Positions 13,247 to 45,783 of a stretch of DNA of 64,000 bases are shown piece by piece (position 1 is the stretch's first letter; every line of letters begins with the position of its first letter). The position numbers and the translations under genes were made by a program. The notes below the pieces were generated by a model. The model was not told where the DNA came from, searched no databases, and saw only the letters and a program-made list of their open reading frames with translations. The DNA lies in NCBI GenBank assembly GCA_903828515.1, contig CAIKMD010000007.1:1208706-1272705 (forward strand), given 5' to 3'. The stretch is from an uncultured Rhodospirillales bacterium. Lineage in GTDB: Bacteria; Pseudomonadota; Alphaproteobacteria; ATCC43930; CGMCC-115725.

Positions 13247-13247
13247 G

Positions 13248-14543: not shown

Positions 14544-14550
14544 GATCAAA

Positions 14551-14580: not shown

Positions 14581-14638
14581 TTCGAGCTTCGCGGGTCGAA
14601 GAGGCGGATGAGATGACTGTTCGCTTGCGAGACTTTCA

Positions 14639-15559: not shown

Positions 15560-15574
15560 CTGGAGGAAGCGTGC

Positions 15575-16120: not shown

Positions 16121-16525
16121 TCAGGCGTCGGTCACCGCCGTCAGGTCGATCTCGATCAGGAAATCGGGGTTCGAGAGCCGGGTCACGCCGATCATGGTGC
16201 TGGTCGGCGGGTGATCGGCATTCTCCGGGCGCTTGGTGGTTGGATCGCGCATCACCTTCATCAGGGCATCGACGTCGAGGGTGAAGACGCGGCGCACCAC
16301 GACGTCGTCCCACGTCGCGCCGGCGGCCTTCAGTTGGATCGTCAGCCCTTCGATGATGTGCTCGTATTGCTTCTTGTAGTCGCCTTTGGCGACCGGCTGA
16401 TATTTGTCGTCCGACGGCGTCTGGCCGGCGATGAAGATGAACTTGCACGGCCCCTTGACCGTGACCACGCGCGAATAGCTCGGGTGTTTGAAGAGTTGCG
16501 GCGGATTGATGAATTCTTTTTCCAT
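16121..16525 (-). CDS. RidA/YjgF/L-PSP family enamine/imine deaminase-like protein
   Basis: 134 aa. YSRVVTVKGPCKFIFIAGQTP...IGVTRLSNPDFLIEIDLTAV matches the RidA fold signature. Confidence 0.85.
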   Translation of the reverse strand: MEKEFINPPQLFKHPSYSRVVTVKGPCKFIFIAGQTPSDDKYQPVAKGDYKKQYEHIIEGLTIQLKAAGATWDDVVVRRVFTLDVDALMKVMRDPTTKRPENADHPPTSTMIGVTRLSNPDFLIEIDLTAVTDA

Positions 16526-27853: not shown

Positions 27854-28366
27854 ATGAAACTTCTCCGTGGTTTTTTATCGCGACTCGCGCGCCATAACGC
27901 GGGTATCAGCACGGTCTAGTTTGCGCTGCTCGCGCCGACCTTCGCTCTGCTGATCTGCGTCAGCATCGATTTCGGCCTGACCATGTTGACGCAATCGACG
28001 CTCGACAACGCGGCACGCGACGCTTCGCGGCTGATCATGACCGGACAGATCCAGACGGCGGGCGGTTCCGCCGCGCCGTTCACGGCGAAGCTGTGCGCCG
28101 AGATCGGCACGCTGATCCCCTGCGCGAGCATCCAGTACAACGTGCAATCGGCGACCACCTTCGCGGCGCTGAACGGGACGGTCACGCCCAACGCCGGCGG
28201 CAACATGAGCAGCCAAGGCTTCTCGCCCGGTGTTTCGGGCTCGGATGTGCTGGTGCAGGTCGGTTACAGCCGCACGACGCTCATCCCCTGGGTCGGACAG
28301 TATTACGGCTCCGGCGGCAAGATCCTGGTCGTTTCAACCGTCGCTTTTCAGAATGATCCCTACTGA
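27854..28366 (+). pseudogene. TadE-like pseudopilin gene interrupted by an in-frame TAG at the invariant Glu codon
   Basis: The ATG at 27854 gives MKLLRGFLSRLARHNAGISTV, then TAG (27917-27919). The same frame continues FALLAPTFALLICVSIDFGL... into ORF 27983..28366. The canonical TadE/Flp motif is G-xxxx-E-F-A-L, and the stop replaces the E. Confidence 0.65.
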
Positions 28367-28893
28367 TGTTGAACAAACTCCGCTCCCTCTATCACGACCA
28401 AAGCGGCATGGGCATCGTCGAGTTTGCCCTGCTGGTCCCGCTGATGCTGTCGATGCTGCTCGGTGGTTTCGAGGTCACCCAGGTGGTCGGCGCCAATCTT
28501 CGCGTCGGCGTGGCTGCGCAAACGATGGCCGAACTGATCTCGCAGCAGACCGCCGTCACGACGACGACGCTGGCGAATTTCTGCAAGGGCGCGCAACTCG
28601 TCATGACGCCGTTCTCGTCGACGCCGCTCAAGATCGCGGTTGCGAGCGTCACCAACAACAACAACACCAATTCGGTCGACTGGACCTACACGACTTGCGG
28701 TAGCGCCAGCGCGATCACCAATGCCGCCAGTCTCGCTGATCCGATGATCCCGAATGACGGCGACAGCGTGATCGTGGTCAAGGCGTCCTACAGCTACTCG
28801 GGTGTGACGTATTTCGCGCTCGCGTCGGCATACAGCCTGACCGAGACGAGCTTCGCGCGCCCGCGCAACATCACGCAAGTCGCCCTTAACTAG
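28366..28893 (+). CDS. TadE/TadF-like pseudopilin
   Basis: N-terminus SGMGIVEFALLVPLMLSMLLGGFEV is the intact G-xxxx-EFAL prepilin-like motif followed by a TM helix. Confidence 0.8.
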   Translation: MLNKLRSLYHDQSGMGIVEFALLVPLMLSMLLGGFEVTQVVGANLRVGVAAQTMAELISQQTAVTTTTLANFCKGAQLVMTPFSSTPLKIAVASVTNNNNTNSVDWTYTTCGSASAITNAASLADPMIPNDGDSVIVVKASYSYSGVTYFALASAYSLTETSFARPRNITQVALN

Positions 28894-28921
28894 CGTGCCG
28901 TCCGTACAACCCGAGGTTCAT

Positions 28922-29944
28922 ATGCGCCGCTTGTTTTCGTTTGCGAACATTCTCTCCCGGCTCTTCGGCGAATCGAGGGGCAGCATCAGCGTCGTTTTCG
29001 GCCTGATGCTGGTCCCGACGACGCTGGCGATCGGCGCCGGTGTCGATTTTTCGCGCGCGCTTCAGCTCAAGAGCCAGATGCAGTCGGCGGTCGACGCGGC
29101 TGCCCTGGCCGGTGCGAGCGCCTATAAGGACGCCAACTCCGGGACTTCGGCAACGACGACGGCGACCAACTATATGAAGTCGGCGATCACCAACATGACC
29201 ACCAATCTCGGCGTGACCTACACGACCGTGCCATCGACGAAGGCGATCAGCGGTTCCACCACCGGCTATATGATGACGGTGACGGCTACTTCCTCTTTGA
29301 AGCCGACGCTATTGGGATTGTTCATGAGCGGGATCAACGTCTCGGTCTCGGCCCAGGCCGAGAATCCGATCGTGACCGCGACGGTCAATCTGGCCAATTT
29401 CTCCAGCAGCGCCTGCGACACCAACACGATCTATTATTACTATGTTCCGTCCGACGGCAGCACGCCGGCGAACTCGGATCTGGTTCAGCTTTACATCAAC
29501 ACGTCGACGCCCAACGTCAAGAATGTCAGCTTCCAGATTTCGGCGAGCAAGCAGATCGGTTTCGTGCTCAAGAACGTGACCGGTGGCCAATGCGGCTATG
29601 GCACCAACGGCTATGGCGGCAAACAGGGCAGCACGCATTACTTCTATTCGCAGTACAACCCGCCCAGCACGATCGCCTATCCCTCGACCACCAAGAACTG
29701 TGCGCTACAGGTGCTGAGCGTTCCGTCGAGCGGCAAGCTGCCGACGCCCGCGTCGGGAAGCTGTTACACGGCGGCCTTCGTCGGCGCGGCGCCGAGCTGC
29801 TCGCAGCTCTCGGGTCAGAGTTTCGAATATGCCTGGAACGACATGGGCGGCACGTCGGACGACCATGACTACAACGACGCGATTTACAGCTTTTCCTGCT
29901 CGGCGACGGACAGCACCAACGCTGTCGTGTTCCTGACCAACTAA
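28922..29944 (+). CDS. TadG-like putative pilus-assembly protein with Ser/Thr-rich middle and Cys-containing C-terminal domain
   Basis: N-terminus RGSISVVFGLMLVPTTLAIGAGVDFSRA matches the TadG N-terminal (Tad/pilus-assembly) motif. The start was set at the ATG (MRRLF) rather than the upstream GTG. Confidence 0.7.
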   Translation: MRRLFSFANILSRLFGESRGSISVVFGLMLVPTTLAIGAGVDFSRALQLKSQMQSAVDAAALAGASAYKDANSGTSATTTATNYMKSAITNMTTNLGVTYTTVPSTKAISGSTTGYMMTVTATSSLKPTLLGLFMSGINVSVSAQAENPIVTATVNLANFSSSACDTNTIYYYYVPSDGSTPANSDLVQLYINTSTPNVKNVSFQISASKQIGFVLKNVTGGQCGYGTNGYGGKQGSTHYFYSQYNPPSTIAYPSTTKNCALQVLSVPSSGKLPTPASGSCYTAAFVGAAPSCSQLSGQSFEYAWNDMGGTSDDHDYNDAIYSFSCSATDSTNAVVFLTN

Positions 29945-35950: not shown

Positions 35951-36754
35951 ATGACCACCGGACCCAGCCGCAAGATCGCCTTCGTGCTCGCCGCGTCCGA
36001 TCACGGCACGATGATCGTCAACCGCTTCGATTACCGGATGATCGACGAGACGCGCGGCTTCGGGGTCGGACTCGACATCCTCAACACCTCGTCCTTCGAT
36101 CCAAAGGGCGTCGATCTGACGTTGTCGCTGCTCGCGCTGCGCCGCCAGTATTTCGGCGACGGCGTGCATGTCATCGATTGCGGCGCCAATATCGGCACTT
36201 TCACCCTGGAATGGGCGCGCCAGATGACCGGGTGGGGATCGGTCACCGCGATCGAGGCGCAGGAGCGAATCTATTACGCGCTCGCCGGCAACATCGCGAT
36301 CAACAACTGCTTCAACGCCCGCGCAGTGCTGGCCGCCGCCGGCGACCGGCTCGGGGTCATGAAAATCCCCGTTCTGGATTACGCGCAACCGGCGAGCTTC
36401 GGCAGCGTCGAAATCAAAAAGCGCGAGAACCCCGAATTCATCGGACAAGATCTCGATTACGCGAGCGAGCATGCCGTCGAGGTTCCCTGCATCACGCTGG
36501 ACTCGCTGGGGCTGGCACGGGTCGATCTCGTCAAGATCGATGTAGAAGGGATGGAGTTGGAGGTGCTCGCCGGCGCCGCGGGTCTGATCGAACAGTATCG
36601 CCCCATCGTGATCGCCGAGTTCATCAAGGCTGGAAAGGAACAGCTGCGGGCATGGCTGGAGGCGCGTGACTACAGCGTCACCGAATCCGACATCAATTTC
36701 GTCGCTATTCATAAATCCGATAAGACGCTGGGACACATCGCGAAAGCGCCCTGA
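35951..36754 (+). CDS. FkbM family methyltransferase
   Basis: VIDCGANIGTFT (motif I) and DLVKIDVEGMELEVLAGA (family C-terminal block). GGAGA SD 7 nt upstream of the ATG. Confidence 0.8.
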   Translation: MTTGPSRKIAFVLAASDHGTMIVNRFDYRMIDETRGFGVGLDILNTSSFDPKGVDLTLSLLALRRQYFGDGVHVIDCGANIGTFTLEWARQMTGWGSVTAIEAQERIYYALAGNIAINNCFNARAVLAAAGDRLGVMKIPVLDYAQPASFGSVEIKKRENPEFIGQDLDYASEHAVEVPCITLDSLGLARVDLVKIDVEGMELEVLAGAAGLIEQYRPIVIAEFIKAGKEQLRAWLEARDYSVTESDINFVAIHKSDKTLGHIAKAP

Positions 36755-36904
36755 ACGGGACCAACCGGCCGTTTGTCGAACGACGGTTAGGTAACATTAG
36801 GCAACACTTCGGTGCTGCTTGTTCGGTAATGCACTGAATGATAACCTCCCCGCATTAACCACGTCCGCGCGATCAACGGGGGATGTGGGGGGATTGGCAC
36901 CGAA

Positions 36905-38263
36905 ATGAGCATTGCTCCGATTCGGAGTAACCCGCCTGCGGCAGCAAGAGCGTCCCTGGCGCTCGTGTCCGAAGACGCGACTTCGGCCTCACCCGATCCG
37001 GCTACAGCATCCCCGGCGATTGCGGTTTCGTCGCCGCCCGATCAGCCCGTCGAAGAGAAACGCGCTTATCCCGCGCCCGCCGACATTCCGACGCAACATG
37101 GCCCGAAGGGCATCCGGTTCGATTTCAACAATGGCTGCCGCGTCGTCGTGCCCGAAAGCGAACACGCGTGGCACGTCCGGTTGAGCGATCTCGACACCGG
37201 CAACATCCTTTTCGATACGACGACCAAAGCCGCGCGCGTCAACAGTTCGAAACTCTACTTCGTTCGCTTTCATATCGAGATCGAGCAGAACGGCGCGAGT
37301 ATCCTGAGTCACGATTATGTCGCCCGCGATCGCGACGTGCTGATTCAGTTTCCGGTCGGCACGCTGGGCGACACGATGGGCTGGTTTCCCTATGCGGTGA
37401 AGTTTCAGGCGCTGCACGGCTGCCGCCTGACCTGCGCCATGGCCGAATGGCTCATCCCGCTGTTCCGGGATACCCATCCCGAGATCGCGTTCGTTACGCA
37501 TGACGAGGTCGAACCCGAGCGTTACTACGCGACATACAATATCGGCCTCTTCTTCGACGATAAGACCAACGTGCATCAGCCCACCGATTTCCGCCATGTC
37601 GGGCTGCACCGCACGGCGGGTTACATTCTGGGCGTGGATCCGACCGAGGTGCCGCCGCGTCTCGCGCTTGCCGAAAGCACCAGGCCGATCGCCGAGCCTT
37701 ATGTCTGCATTGCCGTGCAAAGCACGACGCAGGCGAAATACTGGAATAACCCGACCGGCTGGCGCGAAATCGTCGATTTCCTGAAGGCGCGGGGCTATCG
37801 CGTCGTCTGCATCGATCAAAAGCCGACGCATGGCACCGGTCTCGTGTGGAATCACATTCCGCACGGCGCCGAGGACGAGACCGGCGACCGTCCGCTCGAA
37901 GAGCGCGCGCGTTGGATCAAGCACGCCGATTTCTTCATTGGCCTTTCGAGCGGACTGTCATGGCTTGCCTGGGCGGTGGGCACGCCGGTCGTGCTGATCA
38001 GCGGCTTCACCTTGCCGACGAACGAGTTCGAGACGCCGTATCGGATCGTCAACTATCACACCTGCAATGGCTGCTGGAACGACCCGGCACATCGTTTCGA
38101 CCACAAGGACTTCCTGTGGTGTCCACGCCATAAAGACACGCCGCGCCAGTTCGAATGCACGCGACTCATCACCGCTCAGCAGGTGAAGGCGACGCTGCAG
38201 AAGGTACCCGGATTCGGTTCTCACGCCCTCGACACGTCCAATGACGGGACCACAGCGCCATGA
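36905..38263 (+). CDS. Autotransporter strand-loop-strand O-heptosyltransferase homologue (BAHT family; TibC/Aah-like)
   Basis: Blocks I recognise from TibC/Aah: GPKGIRFDFNNGCRVVVPE..WHVRLSDLDTGNILF; FPVGTLGDTMGWFPYAVKFQ; HRTAGYILGVDP; EPYVCIAVQSTTQAKYWNNPTGW; GLSSGLSWLAWAVGTPVVLISGFTLP. A four-Cys cluster matches the family's iron-finger (CNGCWND...DFLWCPRHKDTPRQFECTRLIT, Cys codons at 38063, 38072, 38120, 38156). There is an extra ~60-aa Pro/Ala/Ser-rich N-terminal extension. Confidence 0.88.
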   Translation: MSIAPIRSNPPAAARASLALVSEDATSASPDPATASPAIAVSSPPDQPVEEKRAYPAPADIPTQHGPKGIRFDFNNGCRVVVPESEHAWHVRLSDLDTGNILFDTTTKAARVNSSKLYFVRFHIEIEQNGASILSHDYVARDRDVLIQFPVGTLGDTMGWFPYAVKFQALHGCRLTCAMAEWLIPLFRDTHPEIAFVTHDEVEPERYYATYNIGLFFDDKTNVHQPTDFRHVGLHRTAGYILGVDPTEVPPRLALAESTRPIAEPYVCIAVQSTTQAKYWNNPTGWREIVDFLKARGYRVVCIDQKPTHGTGLVWNHIPHGAEDETGDRPLEERARWIKHADFFIGLSSGLSWLAWAVGTPVVLISGFTLPTNEFETPYRIVNYHTCNGCWNDPAHRFDHKDFLWCPRHKDTPRQFECTRLITAQQVKATLQKVPGFGSHALDTSNDGTTAP

Positions 38264-40845
38264 GCACGGTCAGCAGCGGCGTCACCGATACGGTCACCTC
38301 GGGCACGGTCGATAGCGGCAGCACCGTCCTCAGCGGCGGAATCATCGATGTCCTGTCGGGCGGCGAGGCGCTCAGCGCAACCGTCAACAGCGGCGGTCAA
38401 ATCCTCGTCGAATCCGGCGGTACGACCAGTATCACGTCGCTGGCTGCCGGCAGTATCGAAGTCGTCAGCAGCGGCGGGTTGGCGATTTCCACCGGCGTAA
38501 CCGGCGAGATCGACGTCTATGGCACGGCGAGCGGGGCAAAGGTTTTCGCGGGCGGCGCCATCGACGTCGACTCCGGCGGTACGGCCACATCGATCACGGC
38601 GTCGGGCGGCACGATCAACGTTTCCTCCGGCACGGCCACGGGCATCACCTTGTCGAGCGGTGGTGCGCTCAACCTCACCTCCGGCACCGCGACCAACGTC
38701 ACGGTGTCGAGTGGCGGCAACCTGAACGTATTCGCCGGCGGTACTACGTCGAGCTTCATCATTTCGTCGGGTGGCACGGAGACTGTTTCCTCCGGGGGGG
38801 CGACCGCCAGCTTGACGGTGCTCAGCGGCGGCACGTTGAAAGTATTCGGCGGCGGCACGATCGACAGCAACACGATCACCGCCAGTGCCGGCGCTCAATT
38901 CGTCCTCGGTTCGGGCTTCGCCACCAGCAATGCGACCGTCACCAGCGGCATTACCTTCGTCGTGGCGTCGGGCGGCGAACTCGATAGCTCGACGGTCAGC
39001 AGCGGCGGCAAACTCATCGTTCAGTCCGGCGGCTCGGCGCTATCGGCCATGCTCACCGGCACCAGTGCCAGCAACGTGAGCGCTCTGGAAGTGGTGTCCG
39101 GCGGTACGAGCCTGGATACGGCAGTCGCCAGCGGCGGCAAGCTCATTCTGTCGTCTGGCGTGAATACCAGCGCCACGGTTCTCAGCGGCGGCGCGGTGAT
39201 CGTTTCCGGCGGCACCGACAGCGCCACGACGATCAGCGCTGGCGGTCTCGAGGTACTTTCCGGCGGCGCGGCCATCAGCACCATTGTCATGGCCAGCAGC
39301 AGCGGCGCCGGTTTCCTTGTCTCGGGCGGCACGGCTTCGGGGACGACCGTCCTGAGCGGCGGGGCGGAAACGGTGGTGAGTCACGGGATCACTTCCGGCA
39401 CCACGGTTTCCAGTGGCGGTTCCGAGAACGTGTCCTCGGGCGGTGTGGCGTCCGGCTCCACGGTTATTTCGGGCGGTCAGTCGTTCGTGTTCGCCAGCGG
39501 CACAACCGTTTCCGAAACGCTCAGCGGGAGCGTGTCGCTGAGCGGCACCGAGACGGTCCAGGCCGGCGGAACGGCCAGCGCCACGATCATCGATAGCGGT
39601 GGCAAGCTGATTATCAACACGAGCGGCTTCGCCAGCGGCTCCGTGGTGAACGGCGGCGGTGTCGAGGTGGTCAAAACCAGCGGCACCGACAGCAATGGCG
39701 CGGCAGTCAGCGGCGGACAAATCCTCGTCTCAGCCGGCGGCACGACGGTGTCAGCCACAATTGGTATTGCCGACTCCGGCGGGCTGAAGAGCACCGAAAT
39801 TCTTTCGGGCGGCACGTCGTCCAACACCACGGTGTCCGGCGGCGGCCTCGAAATCGTTTCCGCCGGCGTGGCGTCCAATACCGACGTCGTCAGCGGCGGT
39901 CAGTTGGTCGTTTCCGCCGGCGGCGTGTCGATCTCGGCCCTGCTCTCGGGCAGCGGCGCCGCGGTCAGCAGCGGCGGCTTGGCCAGTTTGAGCACAGAGG
40001 TTCTGTCTGGCGGCACGTCGTCCAACACGACGATTTCGGCCAGCGGCTTCGAGGTCGTGTCTTCGGGCAGCGTCGCGTCCAACACCACTGTCATCGGGGG
40101 CCAGTTGTTCGTCGCTTCCAGCGGCACGACCATCTCGGCCGTCATTTCCGGTGTCAGCGGCGGCTTCAGCAACGAGTCTGTGTCGAGCAGCGGCGTCGCA
40201 TCCAACACCCAGGTCATCAGCGGCGGCCAGCTCAGTGTCTCTTCCGGCGGCACGACGATCGGCACTGTACTCTCTGGTGGCGGCAGCAAGGAATATCTGT
40301 CGGGCGGCACCGCCTCGGGCACGACGGTGTCCAGCGGCGGCATGGAAGTCGTTTCCTCCGGCGGCAATACCATCAGCCTGACCGTCGATAGCGGCGGTAC
40401 GCTGGAGGTATTCAGCGGCGGCAGCCTCGATTCTAACACGGCGTCGATCAATGCCGGGGCGATCCTCATCGCGGGGTCCGGCTATAACGCGAACCAGTTT
40501 CTGATCAGCAGCGGCATCACGCTGCAAGTTGCTTCGAGCGGCAGCGCCACCAGCGCGCACGTCTTGAGCGGCGGCGTCATCGACGTCCTGTCGGCTGGCA
40601 CCGCCACAAACATGACGATCGACGCCGGCGGCACCGAGGTGGTGAGCGCATTCGGCTCGGCTTCCCATATGGGCATCAGCGGCGAACAGGACGTCTACGG
40701 CACGGCCGGCCTGCAGACGATTTCTGCCGGGGGCGTGGTCAAGGTCGAATCCTTCGGCTCCGCTGCCAGCATGACGGTGTTGAGCGGCGGCGAACTGGAC
40801 GTACTCAACGGTGGTCACGCGACGGATATCGTCGTGGCGAGCGGG
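38260..40845 (+). repeat. Coding tandem-repeat region: ~19-aa Ser/Gly/Thr/Val strand-loop-strand units (V.SGG.x.V.SGG.Asx.T)
   Basis: The SGG tripeptide recurs about every 9-10 residues, e.g. VLSGGAETVVSHGITSGTT / VSSGGSENVSSGGVASGST / VISGGQSFVFASGTTVSET. About 860 aa at a ~19-aa period implies on the order of 45 units (estimated, not aligned). Confidence 0.85.
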
Positions 40846-42573
40846 GGCACGCTTGCCAATAACGGAACATTTACGTTCGACCAGAACGTCAGCACCTTTG
40901 CCGGCACGCTCACGGGCAGCGGCTCGCTTCTGGTCCAGGGCGGCGGCACGCTGAGCCTGTCGGGTGCGAATACCTTCACCGGCGGCACGACGATCAGCGG
41001 CAGCACCGTATCGATCTCGGCCGATAACAATCTCGGTTCGTCCTCCGCGCCGGTCACGCTGGCGGATGGCGCGGCCATCGCTTTCACGTCGGGCATGGTC
41101 TTCGACCACAACATCACGGTGGCCGGCGATCCGACCTTCGACGTGATGAGCGGCCAGACGGTTTCGATCACGACGACGATCGCGGACGGGACCTCCGCCG
41201 GCGACGTGGTGCTGAGCGGCGGCGGCACGCTGGTTCTGGACGGCACGAACAGTTATTCCGGCGGCACCGTGATCGACGGCGGGACGCTGGAACTCGGCAA
41301 TGCCAGCGCGGCGGGCACCGGGTCGGTCTCGTTTGCCTCCGGTGCGGCAGCGACCTTGCGCATCGACGGCACCACGATGCCGACCAATGAGGTCGACGGC
41401 TTCGTCAGCGGCGGCAAGGTGATCGATCTCGCCAATCTCAACATCACGTCGGCGACGCTCGGTGGCGGCAATGTTCTTACCCTCGCCGAGAGTGGCGGTG
41501 GCTCGGTCACGCTGCAGCTCGATCCGTCGCACGATTACAGCGGTTCGAGTTTCACGGTCCATCCCGACGGCGCCGGCGGTACCGACCTTTCGGTCGTCTG
41601 TTATCTGCGCGGCACGCATATTCTTGCCGAAGGCGGCGAGGTTACGGTCGAGGAACTGAAGATCGGCGACCGTGTCATGACGGCGTCGGGTGTGTTGAAG
41701 CCAGTGACCTGGATCGGGTTCGGCTGCGTGATGGTCGTGCCGGGACAGCGGATGAACGCGACGCCGATCGTCGTCCGCCGCGGCGCCTTTGCGGAGAACG
41801 TGCCGCGTCGCGATCTCTACGTCACCAAGGGCCACTCGTTCTATTTCGATGGCGCGCTGATTCCGGCCGAGTATCTCATCAATGACCGCTCGATCCTGTG
41901 GGACGACGCGGCGCGGGTCGTCGACTACTTCCATGTCGAGCTTGAGGATCACGACGTCCTGCTGGCCGAGGGCGCGCCTGCGGAAAGTTACTTCGATGAC
42001 GGCAATCGCGACCTGTTTCAGAATCATAATCCGGGCTGGACCCGCGAGACAGTCGCACAAGCCCGCTACGCGCCGGTGCAAACGGGTGGCGAGATCGTCG
42101 ACCGTGTCTGGCACCGTTTCTCCGACCGGGCGGGCCTGCCCGCTGTCGAAACGACGCATGATCCCGACCTGCATCTTGTCGTCGATGGCCAATCCATCCG
42201 GCCGACGAAGATCGTCGACCGCATCTACACCTTCGCGATCGACGGCGTTCCTTCGGGAGCGATCTTGAAATCGCGGGTCTGCGTGCCGTCGGCGCTCGGC
42301 GCCGCGCGCGATCCGCGCCGGCTTGGCGTCGGCTTGGCAAAGCTCGTGCTGCGCCAGTCCGGTATCGTGACCCAGATCGGACCCGAGGCACCTTTCTTCG
42401 AACGCGGGTTCCACAAGGATGAGGGCGGCTTCCGCTGGAGCGATGGCGACGGCGATCTGCCCGCCCAGCTCTTTGCCCACATGACAGGCGCCTTCGAGAT
42501 CGAGGTCCATATCCTCCATCTCGCCGCGTACCCGATTGCCCCGATGGACATTCCCGCCCGCAACGCGGGTTAG
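38260..42573 (+). CDS. Giant repeat protein: AIDA/TibA-type strand-loop-strand repeats + PATR repeats + C-terminal Hint (bacterial intein-like) domain + unknown tail; no beta-barrel translocator
   Basis: 1437-aa ORF whose ATG overlaps the heptosyltransferase stop (ATGA). See the sub-features. High GC3 in this frame; the long antisense ORFs are Arg-rich artefacts. Confidence 0.9.
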   Translation: MSTVSSGVTDTVTSGTVDSGSTVLSGGIIDVLSGGEALSATVNSGGQILVESGGTTSITSLAAGSIEVVSSGGLAISTGVTGEIDVYGTASGAKVFAGGAIDVDSGGTATSITASGGTINVSSGTATGITLSSGGALNLTSGTATNVTVSSGGNLNVFAGGTTSSFIISSGGTETVSSGGATASLTVLSGGTLKVFGGGTIDSNTITASAGAQFVLGSGFATSNATVTSGITFVVASGGELDSSTVSSGGKLIVQSGGSALSAMLTGTSASNVSALEVVSGGTSLDTAVASGGKLILSSGVNTSATVLSGGAVIVSGGTDSATTISAGGLEVLSGGAAISTIVMASSSGAGFLVSGGTASGTTVLSGGAETVVSHGITSGTTVSSGGSENVSSGGVASGSTVISGGQSFVFASGTTVSETLSGSVSLSGTETVQAGGTASATIIDSGGKLIINTSGFASGSVVNGGGVEVVKTSGTDSNGAAVSGGQILVSAGGTTVSATIGIADSGGLKSTEILSGGTSSNTTVSGGGLEIVSAGVASNTDVVSGGQLVVSAGGVSISALLSGSGAAVSSGGLASLSTEVLSGGTSSNTTISASGFEVVSSGSVASNTTVIGGQLFVASSGTTISAVISGVSGGFSNESVSSSGVASNTQVISGGQLSVSSGGTTIGTVLSGGGSKEYLSGGTASGTTVSSGGMEVVSSGGNTISLTVDSGGTLEVFSGGSLDSNTASINAGAILIAGSGYNANQFLISSGITLQVASSGSATSAHVLSGGVIDVLSAGTATNMTIDAGGTEVVSAFGSASHMGISGEQDVYGTAGLQTISAGGVVKVESFGSAASMTVLSGGELDVLNGGHATDIVVASGGTLANNGTFTFDQNVSTFAGTLTGSGSLLVQGGGTLSLSGANTFTGGTTISGSTVSISADNNLGSSSAPVTLADGAAIAFTSGMVFDHNITVAGDPTFDVMSGQTVSITTTIADGTSAGDVVLSGGGTLVLDGTNSYSGGTVIDGGTLELGNASAAGTGSVSFASGAAATLRIDGTTMPTNEVDGFVSGGKVIDLANLNITSATLGGGNVLTLAESGGGSVTLQLDPSHDYSGSSFTVHPDGAGGTDLSVVCYLRGTHILAEGGEVTVEELKIGDRVMTASGVLKPVTWIGFGCVMVVPGQRMNATPIVVRRGAFAENVPRRDLYVTKGHSFYFDGALIPAEYLINDRSILWDDAARVVDYFHVELEDHDVLLAEGAPAESYFDDGNRDLFQNHNPGWTRETVAQARYAPVQTGGEIVDRVWHRFSDRAGLPAVETTHDPDLHLVVDGQSIRPTKIVDRIYTFAIDGVPSGAILKSRVCVPSALGAARDPRRLGVGLAKLVLRQSGIVTQIGPEAPFFERGFHKDEGGFRWSDGDGDLPAQLFAHMTGAFEIEVHILHLAAYPIAPMDIPARNAG
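40846..41370 (+). other. PATR-type (autotransporter-associated beta-strand) repeat region
   Basis: GSGSLLVQGGGTLSLSGANTFTGGTTISGSTVSI; LSGGGTLVLDGTNSYSGGTVIDGGTLELGNASAAGTG. This is the classic G-GTL-L-G-N-TY-GGT-I--GTL pattern. Confidence 0.75.
41599..42030 (+). other. Hint / bacterial intein-like (BIL, Hint_2-type) domain
   Basis: Starts at Cys1114 (CYLRGTHILAEGGEVTVEELKIGDRVMT...PVTWIG). Block-B-like TKGH (RDLYVTKGHSFYF), block-F-like VDYFHVELEDHDVLLAEGAPAESYF, and an ending ...QNHN followed by Pro. Confidence 0.8.
42031..42570 (+). other. Uncharacterised ~180-aa C-terminal region downstream of the Hint domain
   Basis: PGWTRETVAQARYAPVQTGGEIVDRVWHRF...GFHKDEGGFRWSDGDGDLPAQLF...; I recognise no family. 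Confidence 0.5.
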
Positions 42574-42654: not shown

Positions 42655-43164
42655 ATGGCTTATCATAAGCCTGCTTACTATATTCGCGCGATGAGCGAAT
42701 TCGACTTCAACCGGAGCTTCGGTTTCGTCCTGCACGAAACCGCGCGGCATCTCAACAAGCGCTTCGACCAGCGGGCGAAACACCTTGGCCTGACCCGCGC
42801 GCAGTGCCAGTTGCTGGCCTATCTCGTCTATCACGAGGGCATCAACCAGACCGGCCTCGCCGATATCCTCGAAATCGAGCCGATCTCCCTGGCCCGGTTG
42901 ATCGACCGGATGGAGCAGGCGGGCTGGGTCGAGCGCCGTCCCGATCCGACCGACCGCCGCGCCTGGAAGCTCTACATCACCGAGAAGGCGAAGCCGCTGT
43001 TTTCCCAGATGATCGAGATCGGACGCGAGACACGCGAGGAGGCCTTGGCCGGCATCGCACCCGAGGAGCGCGACCGGATCATGGAATTGTTGCTGCAGGT
43101 CCGGCGCAATCTGTCCGACCGCAGCATTGAAGAGAAAGGTTCTATCGTGGGAGCGGCGGAATGA
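42655..43164 (+). CDS. MarR family transcriptional regulator
   Basis: FGFVLHETARHLNKRFDQRAKHLGLTRAQCQLLAYL...GINQTGLADILEIEPISLARLIDRMEQAGWVERRPDPTDRRA is a winged-helix MarR signature. An alternative start at ATG 42691 (MSEFDF) is plausible if the palindrome is an operator. Confidence 0.88.
   Translation: MAYHKPAYYIRAMSEFDFNRSFGFVLHETARHLNKRFDQRAKHLGLTRAQCQLLAYLVYHEGINQTGLADILEIEPISLARLIDRMEQAGWVERRPDPTDRRAWKLYITEKAKPLFSQMIEIGRETREEALAGIAPEERDRIMELLLQVRRNLSDRSIEEKGSIVGAAE
42657..42671. promoter_or_regulatory. Perfect 15-bp palindrome, candidate MarR operator
   Basis: GGCTTAT-C-ATAAGCC (7+1+7), just upstream of the marR-emrAB operon and overlapping the first candidate ATG at 42655. Confidence 0.4.
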
Positions 43165-44240
43165 GTGCGATCAGCGATTTGAACAGACGATCGGGCTTTG
43201 CCGGTACCTGGCTTCGCATCCTCTTGATGATCAGCGTCCCGGTCGTGCTGCTTGCGATCGGCGCTTATCTCTATCTTTCGGCTGGGCGCTTTGCCTCGAC
43301 CGACGATGCCTATGTCAAAGCCGACAAGGTTTCGATCAGCGCCGATGTTGCGGGGCGGGTGATCGCCGTCGAGGTCAAGGACAACCAGCAGGTTCGCAAG
43401 GGACAGGTGCTGTTCCGCCTCGACAATGGTTCCTACAAGATCGCTGTCGATCATGCCGATGCGCAGCTTGCCAGTGCGCGCCTGCAAATCGATGGGTTAC
43501 GCGCGACCTATAAGCAACGCGCCGGCGAGTTGAAGGCGACCGAGGACACACTCGCCTATCTGAAGAACGAGGCCGATCGTCAGGCGCAGTTGCTGGCATC
43601 GCACGTCACCTCGCAGCAGAAATATGACGAGGCGCGGCACAATTACGACAATGCGCGCCAGCAGGTTGCCGGGGCGCAGCAGCAATTGAACAACGTTCTC
43701 GCCAGCCTGGGCGGCGATCCCGACCTGCCGACTGACCAGAATCCGCTGGTGCGCCAGGCGCAGTCGCAACTCGATCAGGCCAAGCTCAATCTCTCGAACA
43801 CGATCGTGATGGCGCCTGCCAACGGCTATGTCACGATGGTGAACAAGCTGCCGGTCGGGCAATACATCAATACCGGCGCGCCGGCTTTCGAACTCGTCAC
43901 GACCGATCACGCGTGGATCGAGGCGAATTTCAAAGAAACCGATCTCACCCGCATGCGTCCCGGTCAAACCGCGACGGTGACCATCGACACCTATCCCGAC
44001 CGTAATTTCACCGCGCATGTCGAAAGCATCAGCGCGGGCACCGGTTCGGAATTCTCGGTGCTGCCACCGCAAAACGCCTCGGGTAACTGGATCAAGATCG
44101 TGCAACGGGTTCCGGTGCGTCTCGAGATCGACAATCCCGATCCCGATCATCCGTTGCGCTCGGGCATGAGCGCGAACGTCGATGTCGATACCCGCACTGT
44201 GCCGCCGTGGAATCCGAACGGCGCGCCACCCCAATCGTGA
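43161..44240 (+). CDS. emrA: HlyD-family membrane fusion protein, EmrA-like
   Basis: N-terminal TM, STDDAYVKADKVSISADVAGRVIAVEVKDNQQVRKGQVLFRLD, a long coiled coil, and C-terminal NWIKIVQRVPVRLEID (EmrA-typical). ATGA overlap with marR. Confidence 0.88.
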   Translation: MSAISDLNRRSGFAGTWLRILLMISVPVVLLAIGAYLYLSAGRFASTDDAYVKADKVSISADVAGRVIAVEVKDNQQVRKGQVLFRLDNGSYKIAVDHADAQLASARLQIDGLRATYKQRAGELKATEDTLAYLKNEADRQAQLLASHVTSQQKYDEARHNYDNARQQVAGAQQQLNNVLASLGGDPDLPTDQNPLVRQAQSQLDQAKLNLSNTIVMAPANGYVTMVNKLPVGQYINTGAPAFELVTTDHAWIEANFKETDLTRMRPGQTATVTIDTYPDRNFTAHVESISAGTGSEFSVLPPQNASGNWIKIVQRVPVRLEIDNPDPDHPLRSGMSANVDVDTRTVPPWNPNGAPPQS

Positions 44241-44250
44241 GCAGAGGGGC

Positions 44251-45783
44251 ATGACCACGCCGGGCGCCAGCACGGTTCCCTATCGCGGCATCGTCACCGC
44301 GGCGGTGATGCTGGCGACGATCATGCAGACGCTCGACAGCACGATCGCCAACGTCGCGTTGCCGCATATGCAGGGATCGTTCTCGGTCGCGCAGGACGAA
44401 GTTACCTGGGTGCTGACCTCTTATATCGTCGCCGCTGCGATCGCGACGCCGCTGACGGGTTGGCTTGCCTCGGTCTACGGCACCAAAAAGCTGTTGTTGC
44501 TTTCGATCGCCGGATTCACGGTGGCATCCGTGCTGTGCGGCCTCGCCGGCAGCATCTACCAGATGGTGATCTATCGCTTCCTGCAAGGGGTGTGCGGCGC
44601 GGCGCTGGTGCCGCTGGCGCAGACCATTCTTCTGACCATCTATCCGCGCGAGCGCCAGGGCCATGCGATGGCGATCTGGGGCGCCGGCGTGATGCTGGGG
44701 CCGATCATCGGCCCGACGCTCGGCGGCTGGCTGACCGACGAATATTCCTGGCGTTGGGTGTTCTACATCAACGTGCCGATCGGCTTTCTGGCTTTTGCCG
44801 CGCTTTGGGTGTTCGCGCGCGAGACCGATCACCGGCCGCGCGGCTTCGATATCTTCGGTTTTACGATGCTCAGTCTCGCGGTCGGCGGATTGCAGATGAT
44901 GCTCGATCGCGGCGAGCACAAGGATTGGTTCGCCTCCAATGAAATCCGCATCGAGTTCGGCATCGCCATCGCCGCGTTCTGGGTGTTCCTTGTCCATTCG
45001 GCGACGACGCGCCAGCCTTTCGTCAATCTAAAGCTGTTCGCGGACCGGAATTTCCTGGCCGGCAACATCATGATGTTCCTCGTGAGCGTGGTGATTTTCT
45101 CCTCGACCGCGCTTTTGCCGGTTCTGCTGCAAACCGTGATGAATTATCCGGTGGTGACGGCCGGTTGGTTGATGACGCCGCGCGGCGTCGGCACGGTGGC
45201 CTCGATGCTGATCGCAGGGCGTCTGACCAACAAGGTCGATGTTCGGCTGCTGATGGCGATCGGATTTATGTGCACGGCGTTTTCGTTCTGGCTGCCGAGC
45301 GGTTGGACGATCGCGATGGGATCTGGCCCGGTGATGATCGCGGGCTTTGGCCAGGGTTTCGGGATGGGGCTGATGTTCGTGCCTCTGTCGTTGGCAGCCT
45401 TCGGCACGTTGGCGCCGGCCTATCGCAACGAAGCGACGGCGCTGTTCAGCCTGGTGCGCAACGTCGGCGGCAGTATCGGTATTTCTATCGCGGAGAATTT
45501 GCTCGCCCATTCGACCCAGGCGTCGCATCAGGCGATCGGTTCGGCGGTGACGCCGTATAACCACGCGTTGCTCGATCCGCTGGTACAGCAATTCTGGAAC
45601 ATTCACACGACGGTGGGATTGGGCGCGCTCGATATCGAGGTCAATCGCCAGGCGGCGATGGCGGCCTATCTCAGTTGTTTCACGACGATGGCTGTGATCA
45701 GCCTGTGCATGTTGCCGCTCTTGCTGATGATGAAGCGAATCTATCCGGGGCAGGCGGCCGGCGCGCCGCACGCGATGGATTAG
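44251..45783 (+). CDS. emrB: DHA2 MFS multidrug efflux permease, EmrB-like (14 TM)
   Basis: MLATIMQTLDSTIANVALPHMQGS...TPLTGWLASVYGTKKLLL...FLQGVCGAALVPLAQ...EYSWRWVFYINVPIG. Start set at ATG 44251 (MTTPG) after the emrA stop. Confidence 0.9.
   Translation: MTTPGASTVPYRGIVTAAVMLATIMQTLDSTIANVALPHMQGSFSVAQDEVTWVLTSYIVAAAIATPLTGWLASVYGTKKLLLLSIAGFTVASVLCGLAGSIYQMVIYRFLQGVCGAALVPLAQTILLTIYPRERQGHAMAIWGAGVMLGPIIGPTLGGWLTDEYSWRWVFYINVPIGFLAFAALWVFARETDHRPRGFDIFGFTMLSLAVGGLQMMLDRGEHKDWFASNEIRIEFGIAIAAFWVFLVHSATTRQPFVNLKLFADRNFLAGNIMMFLVSVVIFSSTALLPVLLQTVMNYPVVTAGWLMTPRGVGTVASMLIAGRLTNKVDVRLLMAIGFMCTAFSFWLPSGWTIAMGSGPVMIAGFGQGFGMGLMFVPLSLAAFGTLAPAYRNEATALFSLVRNVGGSIGISIAENLLAHSTQASHQAIGSAVTPYNHALLDPLVQQFWNIHTTVGLGALDIEVNRQAAMAAYLSCFTTMAVISLCMLPLLLMMKRIYPGQAAGAPHAMD

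What the first reader, a model, noticed from the sequence alone, without database searches (positions are those of the whole stretch)
36905..42573. TibC/Aah-type protein heptosyltransferase coupled to a giant strand-loop-strand repeat protein that is not an autotransporter
The 452-aa protein shares the conserved blocks and four-Cys iron-finger of the bacterial autotransporter heptosyltransferase (BAHT) family (TibC, Aah). Known BAHTs sit next to, and O-heptosylate Ser residues in, the ~19-aa repeats of type Va autotransporter passengers (TibA, AIDA-I, Ag43). Here the BAHT stop overlaps the start (ATGA at 38260-38263) of a 1437-aa protein. About 860 N-terminal residues are exactly that kind of Ser/Gly-rich ~19-aa repeat, followed by PATR repeats. 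But this protein has no visible Sec signal peptide (it begins MSTVSSGVTDTVTSG). It also has no C-terminal beta-barrel translocator. Instead it terminates in a Hint/bacterial-intein-like autoprocessing domain plus an unknown ~180-aa tail. I am not aware of a described system combining a cytoplasmic heptosyltransferase, an AIDA-like repeat scaffold and a Hint module. It may be a new class of glycosylated, self-cleaving surface or secreted protein in a non-enteric, apparently environmental alphaproteobacterium.
Basis: partly seen in the sequence, partly recalled or inferred. Interest (0 to 1): 0.9.

Follow-up and report, generated by a model that had tools for sequence, protein, structure and literature searches.

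The report
Heptosyltransferase paired with self-cleaving non-autotransporter adhesin
A soil alphaproteobacterium carries a sugar-adding enzyme, so far described only with "autotransporter" adhesins, next to a giant adhesin-like repeat protein that has neither a signal peptide nor a membrane barrel and instead ends in a probable self-cutting Hint domain plus an unstudied conserved tail; the same pairing recurs in other uncultured soil bacteria and seems not to have been described.

Summary
ORF 36905-38263 is a bona fide BAHT. It scores 652.8 bits on TIGR04414 (cut-off 200) and E=4.5e-148 against TibC, and every catalytic, sugar-binding and iron-finger residue is kept. Its stop overlaps (ATGA) the start of a 1437-aa protein with AIDA/TIGR04415 19-aa repeats, PATR repeats and a Hint_2 domain. 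That protein has no PF03797 barrel and no signal-peptide-like N-terminus.

New findings:
- The "unknown tail" is a conserved beta-sandwich domain that always accompanies Hint_2. It sits at the extreme C-terminus of at least 1,639 protein clusters, none with a signal-peptide-like N-terminus, and about 80-90% end in -AA or -VA.
- The pairing is not unique. Among the 80 closest BAHT loci, 59 have an AIDA-like repeat gene, 10 are Hint-terminated, 16 lie beside a C39-ABC/HlyD type I secretion system, and only one has a fused barrel.
- The upstream FkbM methyltransferase (35951-36754) belongs to the unit. It is adjacent to BAHT in 11 of 80 loci and fused to BAHT in one genome, directly upstream of an AIDA-Hint-tail gene.

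Glycosylation, cleavage and export are inferred, not shown, and the export route is unknown. I found no literature on this. Verdict: a new variant of a known kind; interest 0.65.

The parts
35951..36754 (+). FkbM-family (Methyltransf_21) SAM methyltransferase, 267 aa. Proposed third component, possibly O-methylating the protein-linked heptose.
   Evidence: Pfam PF05050 E=1.7e-20, with a weak RfbT hit. Close homologues (E 1e-82 to 1e-112) lie next to BAHT in 11 of 80 related loci. In L167 it is fused to BAHT in one 684-aa ORF, upstream of an AIDA-Hint-tail gene.
36905..38263 (+). BAHT-family protein O-heptosyltransferase (TibC/Aah type), 452 aa. Residues 1-58 form a Pro/Ala/Ser-rich N-terminal extension that TibC lacks.
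   Evidence: TIGR04414 652.8 bits against a cut-off of 200. TibC_1st and GT9 domains. 4rap E=4.5e-148. TibC residues map as follows: D110->D156, T226->T274, K230->K278, R286->R334, W305->W353, thumb F265/V266->L313/V314, P300->S348 (as in AAH).
38063..38158 (+). Iron-finger motif of the BAHT: Cys387, Cys390, Cys406, Cys418.
   Evidence: These align with TibC Cys339/342/358/370. The paper names these four as the Fe ligands.
38260..38263 (+). ATGA stop/start overlap, implying translational coupling of the BAHT and its substrate gene.
   Evidence: Overlaps of the same size (-3), consistent with ATGA, occur in several related loci: L023, L024, L026, L037, L039, L054.
38260..42573 (+). 1437-aa putative BAHT substrate: an AIDA-like beta-helical repeat protein with no signal peptide and no barrel.
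38260..40839 (+). About 45 copies of the 19-residue strand-loop-strand 'SGG' repeat (residues 1-860). This is the predicted heptose-acceptor region.
   Evidence: AIDA PF16168 in 9 stretches, TIGR04415 in 17 stretches. 52 S[GA]G motifs. TibA acceptor Ser313 lies in 'NSGG'.
40840..41598 (+). PATR-repeat / beta-helix C-terminal region (residues 861-1113), ending in '...FTVHPDGAGGTDLSVV'.
   Evidence: PATR PF12951 E=1e-11. A similar end motif closes many T1SS-type BAHT partners (motif-level only).
41599..41601 (+). Codon TGT for Cys1114, the first residue of the Hint domain. Predicted N-S acyl-shift nucleophile; the predicted scissile bond is Val1113|Cys1114.
   Evidence: Invariant column C30 in a 47-sequence alignment. 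The codon was read from the sequence.
41599..42009 (+). Hint_2 / bacterial intein-like domain (residues 1114-1250) with block B T1189-x-x-H1192 and an invariant N1249-R1250.
   Evidence: PF13403 E=5.7e-35. AF2 pLDDT about 90-97 across the domain. Foldseek matches to BIL2 6y75, class-3 inteins and the C. thermocellum BIL 2lwy, E 5e-5 to 1e-3. Conserved columns.
42031..42570 (+). Conserved C-terminal 'tail' domain (residues 1258-1437): one helix plus a beta-sandwich, with no Pfam or NCBIfam model and no structural match.
   Evidence: AF2 pLDDT 87.8. Best PDB match E=0.07 with TM<0.3. Best BFVD match E=0.0096. 1,639 clusters, always C-terminal. Hint_2 present in 51 of 55 sampled members.

Best explanation
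Window 35951-42573 encodes a three-gene protein-glycosylation unit.

(1) The TibC/Aah-type dodecameric heptosyltransferase adds heptose in the cytoplasm, from ADP-heptose, to Ser residues in the loops of the roughly 45 'SGG' 19-residue repeats of the downstream 1437-aa beta-helical protein. This step is inferred from strict conservation of the enzyme and of the acceptor motif.

(2) The upstream FkbM-type methyltransferase probably modifies that glycan further, for example by O-methylating the heptose. This is inferred from conserved adjacency and gene fusions.

(3) The substrate is not a type V autotransporter. It has no Sec signal and no barrel, so it must leave the cell by a Sec-independent route encoded elsewhere. 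A type I system is the leading candidate, because sister BAHT loci carry C39-ABC/HlyD genes. That link is not shown for Hint-type proteins.

(4) Its C-terminal module is a type-B-BIL-like Hint domain plus a conserved beta-sandwich tail. This module performs an N-S acyl shift at Cys1114 and cuts the Val1113|Cys1114 bond. The cut separates the glycosylated passenger from a constant Hint-tail remnant. The remnant's conserved -AA/-VA end may mark it for recognition or degradation. This step is inferred from conserved catalytic residues and from what is known of BIL domains.
For: Enzyme:
- TIGR04414 652.8 bits against a cut-off of 200; TibC E=4.5e-148.
- The catalytic Asp, four sugar-binding residues, the hydrophobic thumb pair and four Fe-Cys are all conserved.

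Substrate:
- AIDA in 9 stretches, TIGR04415 in 17, PATR in 2.
- The acceptor context 'xSGG' matches TibA Ser313.

Coupling:
- ATGA overlap.
- 59 of 80 related BAHT loci have an AIDA-like repeat ORF, mostly within 100 bp.

Not an autotransporter:
- No PF03797.
- 0 of 57 partner ORFs have a signal-peptide-like N-terminus.
- Only 1 of 80 loci has a fused barrel.

Type I link in sister loci:
- 16 of 80 loci carry C39-ABC plus HlyD.

Hint:
- PF13403 E=5.7e-35.
- Invariant Cys1, TxxH and N-R.
- Confident HINT fold.
- BIL domains lacking a +1 nucleophile give cleavage products, and type B BILs cleave without splicing.

Hint plus tail as one constant module:
- About 50% identity over about 90% of the 357-aa query in at least 777 proteins with different N-termini.
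- 1,639 tail clusters, all C-terminal.
- Hint_2 in 51 of 55 sampled.
- -AA/-VA ends in 109 of 120 and 111 of 141.

Methyltransferase:
- Adjacent in 11 of 80 loci.
- FkbM-BAHT fusion upstream of an AIDA-Hint-tail gene.
- Two independent fusions of a class-I methyltransferase to BAHT.

Recurrence of BAHT/Hint pairs:
- 10 of 80 loci, plus L085 and L167.
Against: - There is no biochemical evidence for any step.
- No secretion genes lie in the window. The HlyD-family gene downstream (43161-44240) is part of a MarR/EmrA/MFS efflux operon.
- None of the 10 Hint-type BAHT loci has a type I ABC plus MFP pair nearby, and none of 80 metagenomic Hint+tail loci has a HlyD-type MFP.
- RTX repeats are essentially absent from the Hint+tail family (1 borderline case in 261).
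- The tail is predicted to be a well-folded domain, unlike typical unstructured type I signals.
- The window protein itself ends in -AG, not -AA.
- ADP-heptose biosynthesis genes are not in the window, so donor availability is untested.
- Absence of a signal peptide rests on a hydropathy heuristic, not on SignalP.
- All Hint-type examples come from MAGs or metagenomes.
Confidence: 0.6

Rival explanations
1. Hedgehog-like adduct transfer. The Hint domain forms the thioester at Cys1114. The conserved tail then acts as an 'adduct recognition region' that presents a nucleophile, such as a lipid (for example a hopanoid), an LPS or peptidoglycan amine, or a Lys of another protein. The glycosylated passenger would become covalently anchored rather than simply released.
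For: The tail is always coupled to Hint_2 and is as conserved as the Hint domain itself, with invariant W, S, R, G and Y columns. This mirrors the Hint+SRR/ARR 'Hog' architecture. The best structural match is the BIL2 domain of the Tetrahymena BUBL locus. The N-terminal cargo is highly variable while the module stays constant.
Against: The tail resembles no sterol- or lipid-binding fold, or any solved fold at all. No adduct is known for any bacterial BIL. The cellular compartment where the reaction would occur is unknown. Type B BILs tested so far simply cleave.
Confidence: 0.15
2. Polymorphic-toxin arrangement. The repeat region would be a delivery stalk, the Hint domain a releasing peptidase, and the C-terminal ~180 aa a toxin released into competitors.
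For: HINT domains act as releasing modules upstream of toxin tips in polymorphic toxin systems (background knowledge; MafB and CDI papers surfaced). Tandem Hint_2 paralogues occur in L086.
Against: The tail is the constant part and the N-terminus is the variable part. The tail is about 40-50% identical across hundreds of clusters. The downstream gene is a MarR regulator of an efflux operon, not an immunity gene. No conserved small neighbour was found in 80 loci. No toxin family matched in Pfam or NCBIfam.
Confidence: 0.04
3. Cytoplasmic maturation. Hint cleavage happens inside the cell, and the Hint-tail remnant, which ends in an ssrA-like -AA, is degraded by ClpXP. The module would then be a removable folding or glycosylation chaperone, or a timing device, rather than an export signal.
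For: -AA/-VA termini in 109 of 120 and 111 of 141 family members. No signal peptide anywhere in the family. No linked secretion genes. BAHT acts in the cytoplasm on folded beta-helix.
Against: The N-terminal domains (AIDA, PATR, cadherin-like, CAP, Big, subtilase, PPC) are typical extracellular modules and still need an export signal. The window protein ends in -AG. That -AA acts as a ClpX degron is recalled knowledge and was not tested here.
Confidence: 0.12
4. Incidental adjacency or a decayed autotransporter. The BAHT would really serve a canonical autotransporter elsewhere, and the neighbour would be a degenerate gene that lost its signal peptide and barrel.
For: BAHTs can act on unlinked and heterologous substrates.
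Against: There is an ATGA overlap. The ORF is an intact 1437 aa. The same architecture is present in independent taxa (L051, L045, L085, L167). 59 of 80 loci show the pairing, and only 1 of 80 has a barrel.
Confidence: 0.03

Closest known systems
Aah/AIDA-I and TibC/TibA of E. coli (BAHT plus type Va autotransporter)
   Same: The enzyme is about 60% identical to TibC, with all functional residues kept. The enzyme gene lies immediately upstream of the substrate gene. The substrate has the same 19-residue SGG strand-loop-strand repeats, with Ser acceptors in loops.
   Different: The substrate has no (extended) signal peptide and no C-terminal 12-stranded barrel. Instead it has PATR, Hint_2 and a tail. 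A methyltransferase is attached to the unit. The host is an environmental alphaproteobacterium, not an enteric pathogen.
Type B bacterial intein-like (BIL) domains (Amitai et al. 2003; Dassa et al. 2004)
   Same: A Hint fold with an N-terminal Cys and block B TxxH, no intein-like His-Asn / +1 nucleophile arrangement, located near the C-terminus of repeat-rich proteins of Alphaproteobacteria that look extracellular. Expected to cleave rather than splice.
   Different: Here the Hint domain is followed by a conserved ~180-aa beta-sandwich domain ending in -AA, and it is attached to a BAHT-targeted glycoprotein. Neither feature appears in the papers I could read. The original BIL papers were not available to me, so an exact type-B assignment is untested.
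Hedgehog 'Hog' domain (Hint + sterol/adduct recognition region)
   Same: Variable N-terminal cargo, then a Hint domain with Cys1, then a conserved C-terminal extension. The thioester chemistry is expected to free the cargo's C-terminus.
   Different: The tail shows no sequence or structural similarity to SRR/ARR. It is much longer (about 180 aa, versus roughly 70 aa as I recall). No adduct is known, and the setting is bacterial.
Type I-secreted giant repeat adhesins (RTX adhesins such as LapA/SiiE)
   Same: Giant repeat protein lacking an N-terminal signal peptide. Sister BAHT loci (16 of 80) encode C39-ABC plus HlyD next to the repeat gene.
   Different: The window protein and the Hint+tail family have no RTX nonapeptides and no linked ABC/MFP. 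To my knowledge, heptosylation of type I substrates has not been described.
Polymorphic toxins with pre-toxin HINT domains
   Same: A Hint domain placed between a long stalk and a C-terminal domain.
   Different: The C-terminal domain is constant, not polymorphic. There is no immunity gene, and the variable part is N-terminal.

Membership tests
BAHT (bacterial autotransporter heptosyltransferase; TibC/Aah) | Scores above the curated cut-off of the equivalog model TIGR04414 over its full length | tested here: met
   652.8 bits against a cut-off of 200, model positions 1-374 of 374.
BAHT (bacterial autotransporter heptosyltransferase; TibC/Aah) | N-terminal flattened beta-barrel (TibC_1st) plus a GT-B/GT9 catalytic domain | tested here: met
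   PF21129 E=1.1e-28 and PF01075 E=3.9e-11. Aligns with 4rap residues 9-386.
BAHT (bacterial autotransporter heptosyltransferase; TibC/Aah) | Catalytic base Asp110 and sugar-binding residues Thr226, Lys230, Arg286, Trp305 | tested here: met
   D156, T274, K278, R334 and W353 in the alignment. The residues are defined.
BAHT (bacterial autotransporter heptosyltransferase; TibC/Aah) | Iron-finger: four Cys (TibC 339/342/358/370) | tested here: met
   C387, C390, C406, C418.
BAHT (bacterial autotransporter heptosyltransferase; TibC/Aah) | Beta-hairpin thumb with two consecutive hydrophobic tip residues (F265 V266) | tested here: met
   L313 V314.
BAHT (bacterial autotransporter heptosyltransferase; TibC/Aah) | Dodecameric ring; ADP-heptose-dependent O-heptosylation of Ser | not testable with these tools
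   Needs biochemistry. Position 300 is Ser, as in AAH, which suggests tolerance of both ADP-L,D- and D,D-heptose.
BAHT (bacterial autotransporter heptosyltransferase; TibC/Aah) | The partner is an autotransporter (as the family name implies) | tested here: not met
   The partner lacks PF03797 and a signal peptide. This concerns the substrate, not the enzyme fold, so it widens the family's scope rather than excluding the enzyme.
Type Va (classical) autotransporter | N-terminal Sec signal peptide | tested here: not met
   Starts MSTVSSGVTDTV. No K or R in the first 15 residues. Maximum 12-residue hydropathy 1.56. The AIDA-I profile match begins at model position 61. This is a heuristic only, with no SignalP.
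Type Va (classical) autotransporter | C-terminal beta-barrel translocator (PF03797) | tested here: not met
   No hit at E<0.1. Positive control: L066 gave E=3.3e-47.
Type Va (classical) autotransporter | Beta-helical passenger with AIDA/PATR repeats | tested here: met
   AIDA in 9 stretches, PATR in 2.
Hint_2 / type B bacterial intein-like domain | Pfam PF13403 above the gathering score, and a HINT fold | tested here: met
   121.3 bits against 28.4. Foldseek matches to BIL and intein structures at probability 1.00.
Hint_2 / type B bacterial intein-like domain | N-terminal Cys/Ser nucleophile and block B TxxH | tested here: met
   C1114 invariant; T1189 at 90% or more; H1192 invariant.
Hint_2 / type B bacterial intein-like domain | No intein block G His-Asn with a +1 nucleophile; cleavage uncoupled from splicing | tested here: inconclusive
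   The last Hint strand '..APAESY' is followed by an invariant N1249-R1250 with no Cys/Ser/Thr at +1. This is consistent with type B as described, but no type-B-specific profile was available and activity is untested.
Intein (mobile protein-splicing element) | Inserted within a conserved host protein, with a +1 Cys/Ser/Thr and extein continuity | tested here: not met
   The domain always sits at the same C-terminal position, followed by its own conserved tail. There is no +1 nucleophile.
Type I secretion substrate | RTX GGxGxD repeats and/or adjacent ABC, MFP (and OMP) genes | tested here: not met
   No RTX hit. 1 borderline case in 261 across the family. No ABC/MFP next to Hint-type genes. 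The feature is met in 16 of 80 sister BAHT loci with non-Hint partners.
Type I secretion substrate | Functional C-terminal secretion signal | not testable with these tools
   The conserved -AA/-VA end could be such a signal. No predictor or experiment was available.
Polymorphic toxin (PT-HINT type) | Variable C-terminal toxin domain plus an adjacent immunity gene | tested here: not met
   The tail is conserved. The downstream gene is MarR. No conserved neighbour was found.

The most novel reading that the evidence does not exclude
The Hint_2 + tail + '-AA' module may be a previously unrecognised, widespread C-terminal sorting and processing device of soil Alphaproteobacteria, present in at least 1,639 clusters. 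It would export signal-peptide-less extracellular proteins. It would then use Hedgehog-like thioester chemistry to release them, or to attach their new C-terminus covalently to an envelope nucleophile such as a lipid (for example a hopanoid), LPS or peptidoglycan. In parallel, BAHT enzymes, some fused to methyltransferases, would (methyl-)heptosylate non-autotransporter cargo, which would make 'autotransporter heptosyltransferase' a misnomer.
Probability: 0.12. Interest if true: 0.9.

Novelty: new variant of a known kind. Interest (0 to 1): 0.65.

Why it matters
BAHT glycosylation has been studied only as an accessory of type V autotransporters in pathogens. A 2021 review explicitly asks whether BAHTs can modify any beta-helix. 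This locus and its relatives suggest that, in soil Alphaproteobacteria, the usual BAHT partners are non-autotransporters: type I-linked giant repeat proteins and Hint-terminated proteins. They also suggest that methylation is often coupled to heptosylation.

The locus also gives a concrete, testable handle on bacterial Hint_2/BIL domains. More than 20 years after they were described, I found no established biological role for them in the papers available to me. Here the domain sits in a defined module (Hint, a conserved beta-sandwich, an -AA end) attached to a cargo whose modification state can be followed by mass spectrometry. If the module turns out to be an export or anchoring device, that would be a new protein-sorting principle.

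Tried and rejected
- Polymorphic-toxin reading: rejected. The tail is constant and the N-terminus variable, and there is no immunity gene.
- True intein: rejected. There is no host-protein continuity and no +1 nucleophile.
- Secretion genes in the window: none relevant. The window holds an RND/OEP efflux system at 35-9212, Tad pilus fragments at about 28.4-29.9 kb, and a MarR/EmrA/MFS operon at 42655-45783.
- Type I ABC/MFP genes next to Hint+tail genes: none with both next to the 10 Hint-type BAHT loci, and no HlyD-type MFP in 80 metagenomic loci. No conserved neighbour of any kind was found.
- Fold assignment of the tail: no significant match in PDB (best E=0.07) or BFVD (best E=0.0096). No Pfam or NCBIfam model matches it. 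Sequence search against PDB found nothing.
- DNA tandem repeats: none, so the repeats are diverged and not an artefact.
- Promoter and terminator scan: not above shuffled expectation, so uninformative.
- The 922-aa antisense ORF at 39751-42519 is most likely a by-product of GC-rich repeat sequence. I did not scan it, but the + strand carries all the strong domain hits.
- Literature: 'Hint domain' with heptosyltransferase gave 0 papers, 'Hint domain' with exoproteome gave 0, and 'Hint domain-containing protein' gave only an 'unknown function' mention. The primary BIL papers (Amitai 2003, Dassa 2004) were not held.
- The second FkbM-family gene in the window (24507-25283) is only distantly related (E=9e-6), and I judged it not part of the unit.
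- ADP-heptose pathway genes were not looked for outside the window.

Full report
**1. What is there**

G+C is about 61-66% across the region and does not differ from the rest of the window.

On the same strand, 150 bp upstream, lies a 267-aa FkbM-family methyltransferase (35951-36754; PF05050 E=1.7e-20). Downstream is a MarR / HlyD-family MFP / MFS efflux operon (42655-45783). The rest of the window is metabolic and transport genes, with no secretion system that could serve the large protein.

The same genes occur on ENA and NCBI contigs up to 2,314,205 bp long. The organism is an uncultured alphaproteobacterium. Its BAHT is 61-77% identical to those of Stellaceae, Roseiarcus, Reyranella, Bradyrhizobium and Acetobacteraceae genomes.

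**2. The enzyme**

The 452-aa protein scores 652.8 bits on the NCBIfam equivalog TIGR04414 (cut-off 200, full model length). It has the TibC_1st and GT9 Pfam domains and matches the TibC crystal structure sequence at E=4.5e-148.

I mapped the residues that the TibC structure paper defines (PMC4358343) through the alignment:

| TibC residue | Role | Window protein |
|---|---|---|
| Asp110 | catalytic base | D156 |
| Thr226 | sugar binding | T274 |
| Lys230 | sugar binding | K278 |
| Arg286 | sugar binding | R334 |
| Trp305 | sugar binding | W353 |
| Phe265-Val266 | hydrophobic thumb tip | L313-V314 |
| Cys339/342/358/370 | iron ligands | C387/390/406/418 |
| Pro300 | stereoselectivity | S348 (Ser, as in AAH) |

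In the paper, Ser at the Pro300 position lets the enzyme use both ADP-L,D- and ADP-D,D-heptose. BAHT membership is therefore met on every sequence-level criterion. The 58-residue Pro/Ala/Ser-rich N-terminal extension is absent from TibC.

**3. The partner protein**

- **Residues 1-860** are an 8+11 = 19-residue 'SGG' repeat. Pfam finds AIDA in 9 stretches, NCBIfam finds TIGR04415 in 17, there are 52 S[GA]G motifs, and Ser+Gly make up about 40% of the region. In TibA, the mapped acceptor Ser313 lies in the same 'N-S-G-G' context.
- **Residues 861-1113** contain PATR repeats.
- **No autotransporter barrel.** There is no PF03797 hit at E<0.1, whereas the positive control L066 gave E=3.3e-47.
- **No signal peptide, by heuristic.** The protein begins directly with repeat sequence. 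The AIDA-I profile match starts at query residue 3 and model position 61. There is no K or R in the first 15 residues and no hydrophobic h-region. SignalP was not available.
- **No DNA-level tandem repeats**, so the protein periodicity is genuine and diverged.

**4. The C-terminal module**

Residues 1113-1247 match Hint_2 (E=5.7e-35). In an alignment with 46 homologues, several positions are invariant or nearly so:
- Cys1114, the first Hint residue.
- T1189-x-x-H1192, intein block B.
- N1249-R1250, just after the last Hint strand.

An AlphaFold2 model of residues 1085-1437 is confident (pLDDT 86.6, pTM 0.79). Its first half matches BIL domains and class-3 inteins at probability 1.00: 6y75, 6rix and 2lwy, with E from 5e-5 to 1e-3.

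According to the reviews I could read, BIL domains lack the +1 nucleophile and mainly give cleavage products. Type B BILs lack intein block G and cleave without splicing. The window domain fits that description.

The 'unknown tail' (residues ~1258-1437) is predicted with confidence as one helix plus a beta-sandwich (pLDDT 87.8). It has no significant match in the PDB (best E=0.07, TM<0.3) or among viral models, and no Pfam or NCBIfam model covers it.

**5. The tail is not an orphan**

The last 357 residues (Hint plus tail) have at least 777 homologues. The 120 best hits listed are about 45-53% identical over 84-99% of the query. Their N-termini are unrelated to one another and include AIDA, PPC, beta-helix and subtilase domains.

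The tail alone finds 1,639 clusters at the 50% identity level. It always lies at the extreme C-terminus, in proteins of 150-4131 aa. Of 55 sampled, 51 contain Hint_2; at least three of the other four are short fragments under 200 aa. A few have AIDA, PATR, beta-helix, CAP or cadherin-like N-termini.

None of 104 full-length members has a signal-peptide-like N-terminus. 109 of 120 and 111 of 141 end in -AA or -VA. The window protein itself ends in -AG.

RTX repeats are essentially absent from the family. In 80 metagenomic loci carrying the module there is no BAHT, no HlyD-type MFP and no conserved neighbour.

The module therefore behaves like a constant C-terminal processing or sorting device on variable, extracellular-looking cargo. 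This is the opposite polarity to polymorphic toxins, and I reject that reading.

**6. How general is the BAHT pairing?**

I examined the 80 genome loci whose BAHT is closest to this one.

| Feature | Loci (of 80) |
|---|---|
| AIDA-like repeat ORF, usually <100 bp from the BAHT, several with an overlap of the same size | 59 |
| Hint-terminated protein next to the BAHT (L006, L007, L009, L045, L051, L052, L058, L060, L074, L075) | 10 |
| C39-peptidase-domain ABC transporter plus HlyD MFP beside the BAHT/repeat pair | 16 |
| Repeat protein with a fused autotransporter barrel (Trinickia, a betaproteobacterium) | 1 |

- Nine of the ten Hint-type loci have detectable repeats in the same ORF. L045, L051 and L058 also matched the window's tail type, although in L058 the match lies in a separate overlapping ORF.
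- Two further contigs, L085 and L167, also place a TibC-type gene upstream of an AIDA-Hint-tail gene.
- The type I-linked loci include cultured Enhydrobacter aerosaccus ATCC 27094 and several Bradyrhizobium strains.
- None of 57 partner ORFs has a signal-peptide-like N-terminus. Many start 'M-[ST]-T-x-x-[VI]-SSG-x-T'.

So in this alphaproteobacterial BAHT clade, non-autotransporter partners are the norm. [quoted passage not shown] I found no paper describing the alternative.

**7. The methyltransferase**

Close homologues of the window's FkbM gene (E 1e-82 to 1e-112) lie next to the BAHT in 11 of the 80 loci, with Hint-type, type I-type and other partners.

In L167 (GCA_037024885.1) a single 684-aa ORF fuses the two enzymes:
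- Its N-terminal part is an FkbM domain, 55% identical to the window's (E=2e-94).
- Its C-terminal part is a BAHT, 61% identical to the window's.
- The ORF sits directly upstream of an AIDA-Hint-tail protein.

Two other proteins fuse a different, class-I SAM methyltransferase to a BAHT (P0340 and P0341).

Recurrent adjacency plus independent fusions argue that methylation is functionally coupled to BAHT action. FkbM-family enzymes include sugar O-methyltransferases (background knowledge; there is a weak RfbT hit). The most economical guess is O-methylation of the protein-linked heptose. This is inference.

**8. Mechanism**

Shown by sequence and structure prediction:
- An intact BAHT.
- An acceptor-rich beta-helical repeat protein whose gene is translationally coupled to it.
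- An intact Hint active site.
- A conserved tail domain.

Inferred:
- Cytoplasmic heptosylation, possibly with methylation.
- Sec-independent export by machinery encoded elsewhere.
- An N-S acyl shift at Cys1114 that severs Val1113|Cys1114, separating the passenger from the Hint-tail remnant.

Three things remain open:
1. Where cleavage happens.
2. Whether the thioester is hydrolysed or transferred to a nucleophile, in a Hedgehog-like reaction with the tail acting as an adduct-recognition region.
3. What the -AA end does (type I signal, tail-specific protease or ClpXP tag).

A type I route is suggested only by analogy with sister loci. A shared end-motif, '..L.L.G.Y....F....DG.GGT.I', closes many type I-type partners and directly precedes the Hint Cys here (motif-level only). 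Against a type I route are the lack of linked ABC/MFP genes, the lack of RTX repeats, and the folded tail.

**9. Verdict**

The case is one instance of a broader pattern that appears undescribed, not a singular oddity.

It is a new variant of a known kind. The enzyme family and the Hint/BIL domain are both known. What is new is their combination, the non-autotransporter substrate class, the Hint-tail-AA module as a unit, and the methyltransferase coupling.

Interest is 0.65. Specialists in type V secretion, bacterial glycosylation or inteins would be surprised, and simple experiments are available. All functional steps are still inferred, the export route is unknown, and every Hint-type example so far comes from uncultured organisms.

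Noticed in passing
Hint+tail family (P0001-P0120, P0124-P0264); window protein end at 42556-42570: About 80-90% of Hint+tail proteins end in the dipeptide -AA or -VA: 109 of 120, 111 of 141, and 43 of 50 in metagenome loci. Divergent Hint-type BAHT partners without the same tail also often end in -AA. The window protein ends in -AG. This could be a C-terminal recognition signal (degron, tail-specific protease, or secretion signal).
   Followed up: partly
L018, L019, L020, L022, L028, L029, L033, L035, L037, L038, L040, L047, L053, L057, L061, L076: In 16 of the 80 closest BAHT loci, a C39-domain ABC transporter and a HlyD-family MFP (type I secretion) sit beside the BAHT/AIDA-repeat gene pair. 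These include cultured Enhydrobacter aerosaccus ATCC 27094 and Bradyrhizobium strains. It implies heptosylated type I substrates, which I have not seen described.
   Followed up: partly
P0340, P0341: Two BAHT proteins carry an N-terminal class-I SAM methyltransferase domain (Methyltransf_11/25/23). This is a different methyltransferase family from FkbM, fused at the same position.
   Followed up: partly
L029:3177-4160 and L029:5602-6594: Two roughly 330-aa ORFs consist of little more than an autotransporter beta-domain (PF03797 E=1.7e-47 for the one I tested). They lie a few kb from a BAHT / repeat-protein / type I locus. They could be stand-alone barrels.
   Followed up: no
L006, L011, L019, L025, L060: Two BAHT paralogues occur in the same locus (scores of about 580-650 and about 670-740 bits against the window enzyme).
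   Followed up: no
L086:4112-9731: Three Hint_2 paralogues (575, 300 and 576 aa) sit in tandem with small unannotated genes between them, next to IS21/Mu-type transposase genes.
   Followed up: no
C-termini of non-Hint BAHT partners (e.g. L018, L033, L040, L061, L057, L071, L023, L027, L030, L043): Many end in a His-containing tripeptide such as -PHA, -HHA, -GHA, -WHS or -WHG, preceded by '..LFGxYxAxxFxLxxDGxGGTxI'. This may be a family-specific C-terminal signal.
   Followed up: no
window 24507-25283 (+): A second FkbM-family methyltransferase (258 aa) lies between a cupin gene and a molybdopterin oxidoreductase gene. It is only distantly related to the BAHT-linked one (E=9e-6).
   Followed up: yes
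window ~9320-16360 (+): A methionine/SAM-cycle cluster is present: MetE-like Meth_synt_2, an unannotated 478-aa gene, S-adenosylmethionine synthetase, S-adenosylhomocysteine hydrolase and MTHFR. It lies about 20 kb upstream of the methyltransferase-containing unit, and the proximity is probably coincidental.
   Followed up: no
window 35-9212 (+) and ~28366-29944 (+): An RND efflux system has two tandem ACR_tran genes flanked by an MFP and an OEP gene. Separately, there are TadE/Tad-like pilus-assembly gene fragments.
   Followed up: no
window 39751-42519 (-): A 922-aa antisense ORF overlaps the substrate gene. I did not scan it. It is most likely a by-product of GC-rich repeat sequence, since the strong domain hits are all on the + strand.
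   Followed up: partly
L106, L107, L124, L129, L130, L156 and L098, L099, L101, L103, L130: A roughly 676-aa TPR-rich protein (6 loci) and a roughly 271-aa protein that looks sulfotransferase-like by eye (5 loci, not scanned against any profile) recur near Hint+tail genes in peat and soil metagenome contigs. Some of these contigs may come from closely related organisms.
   Followed up: no
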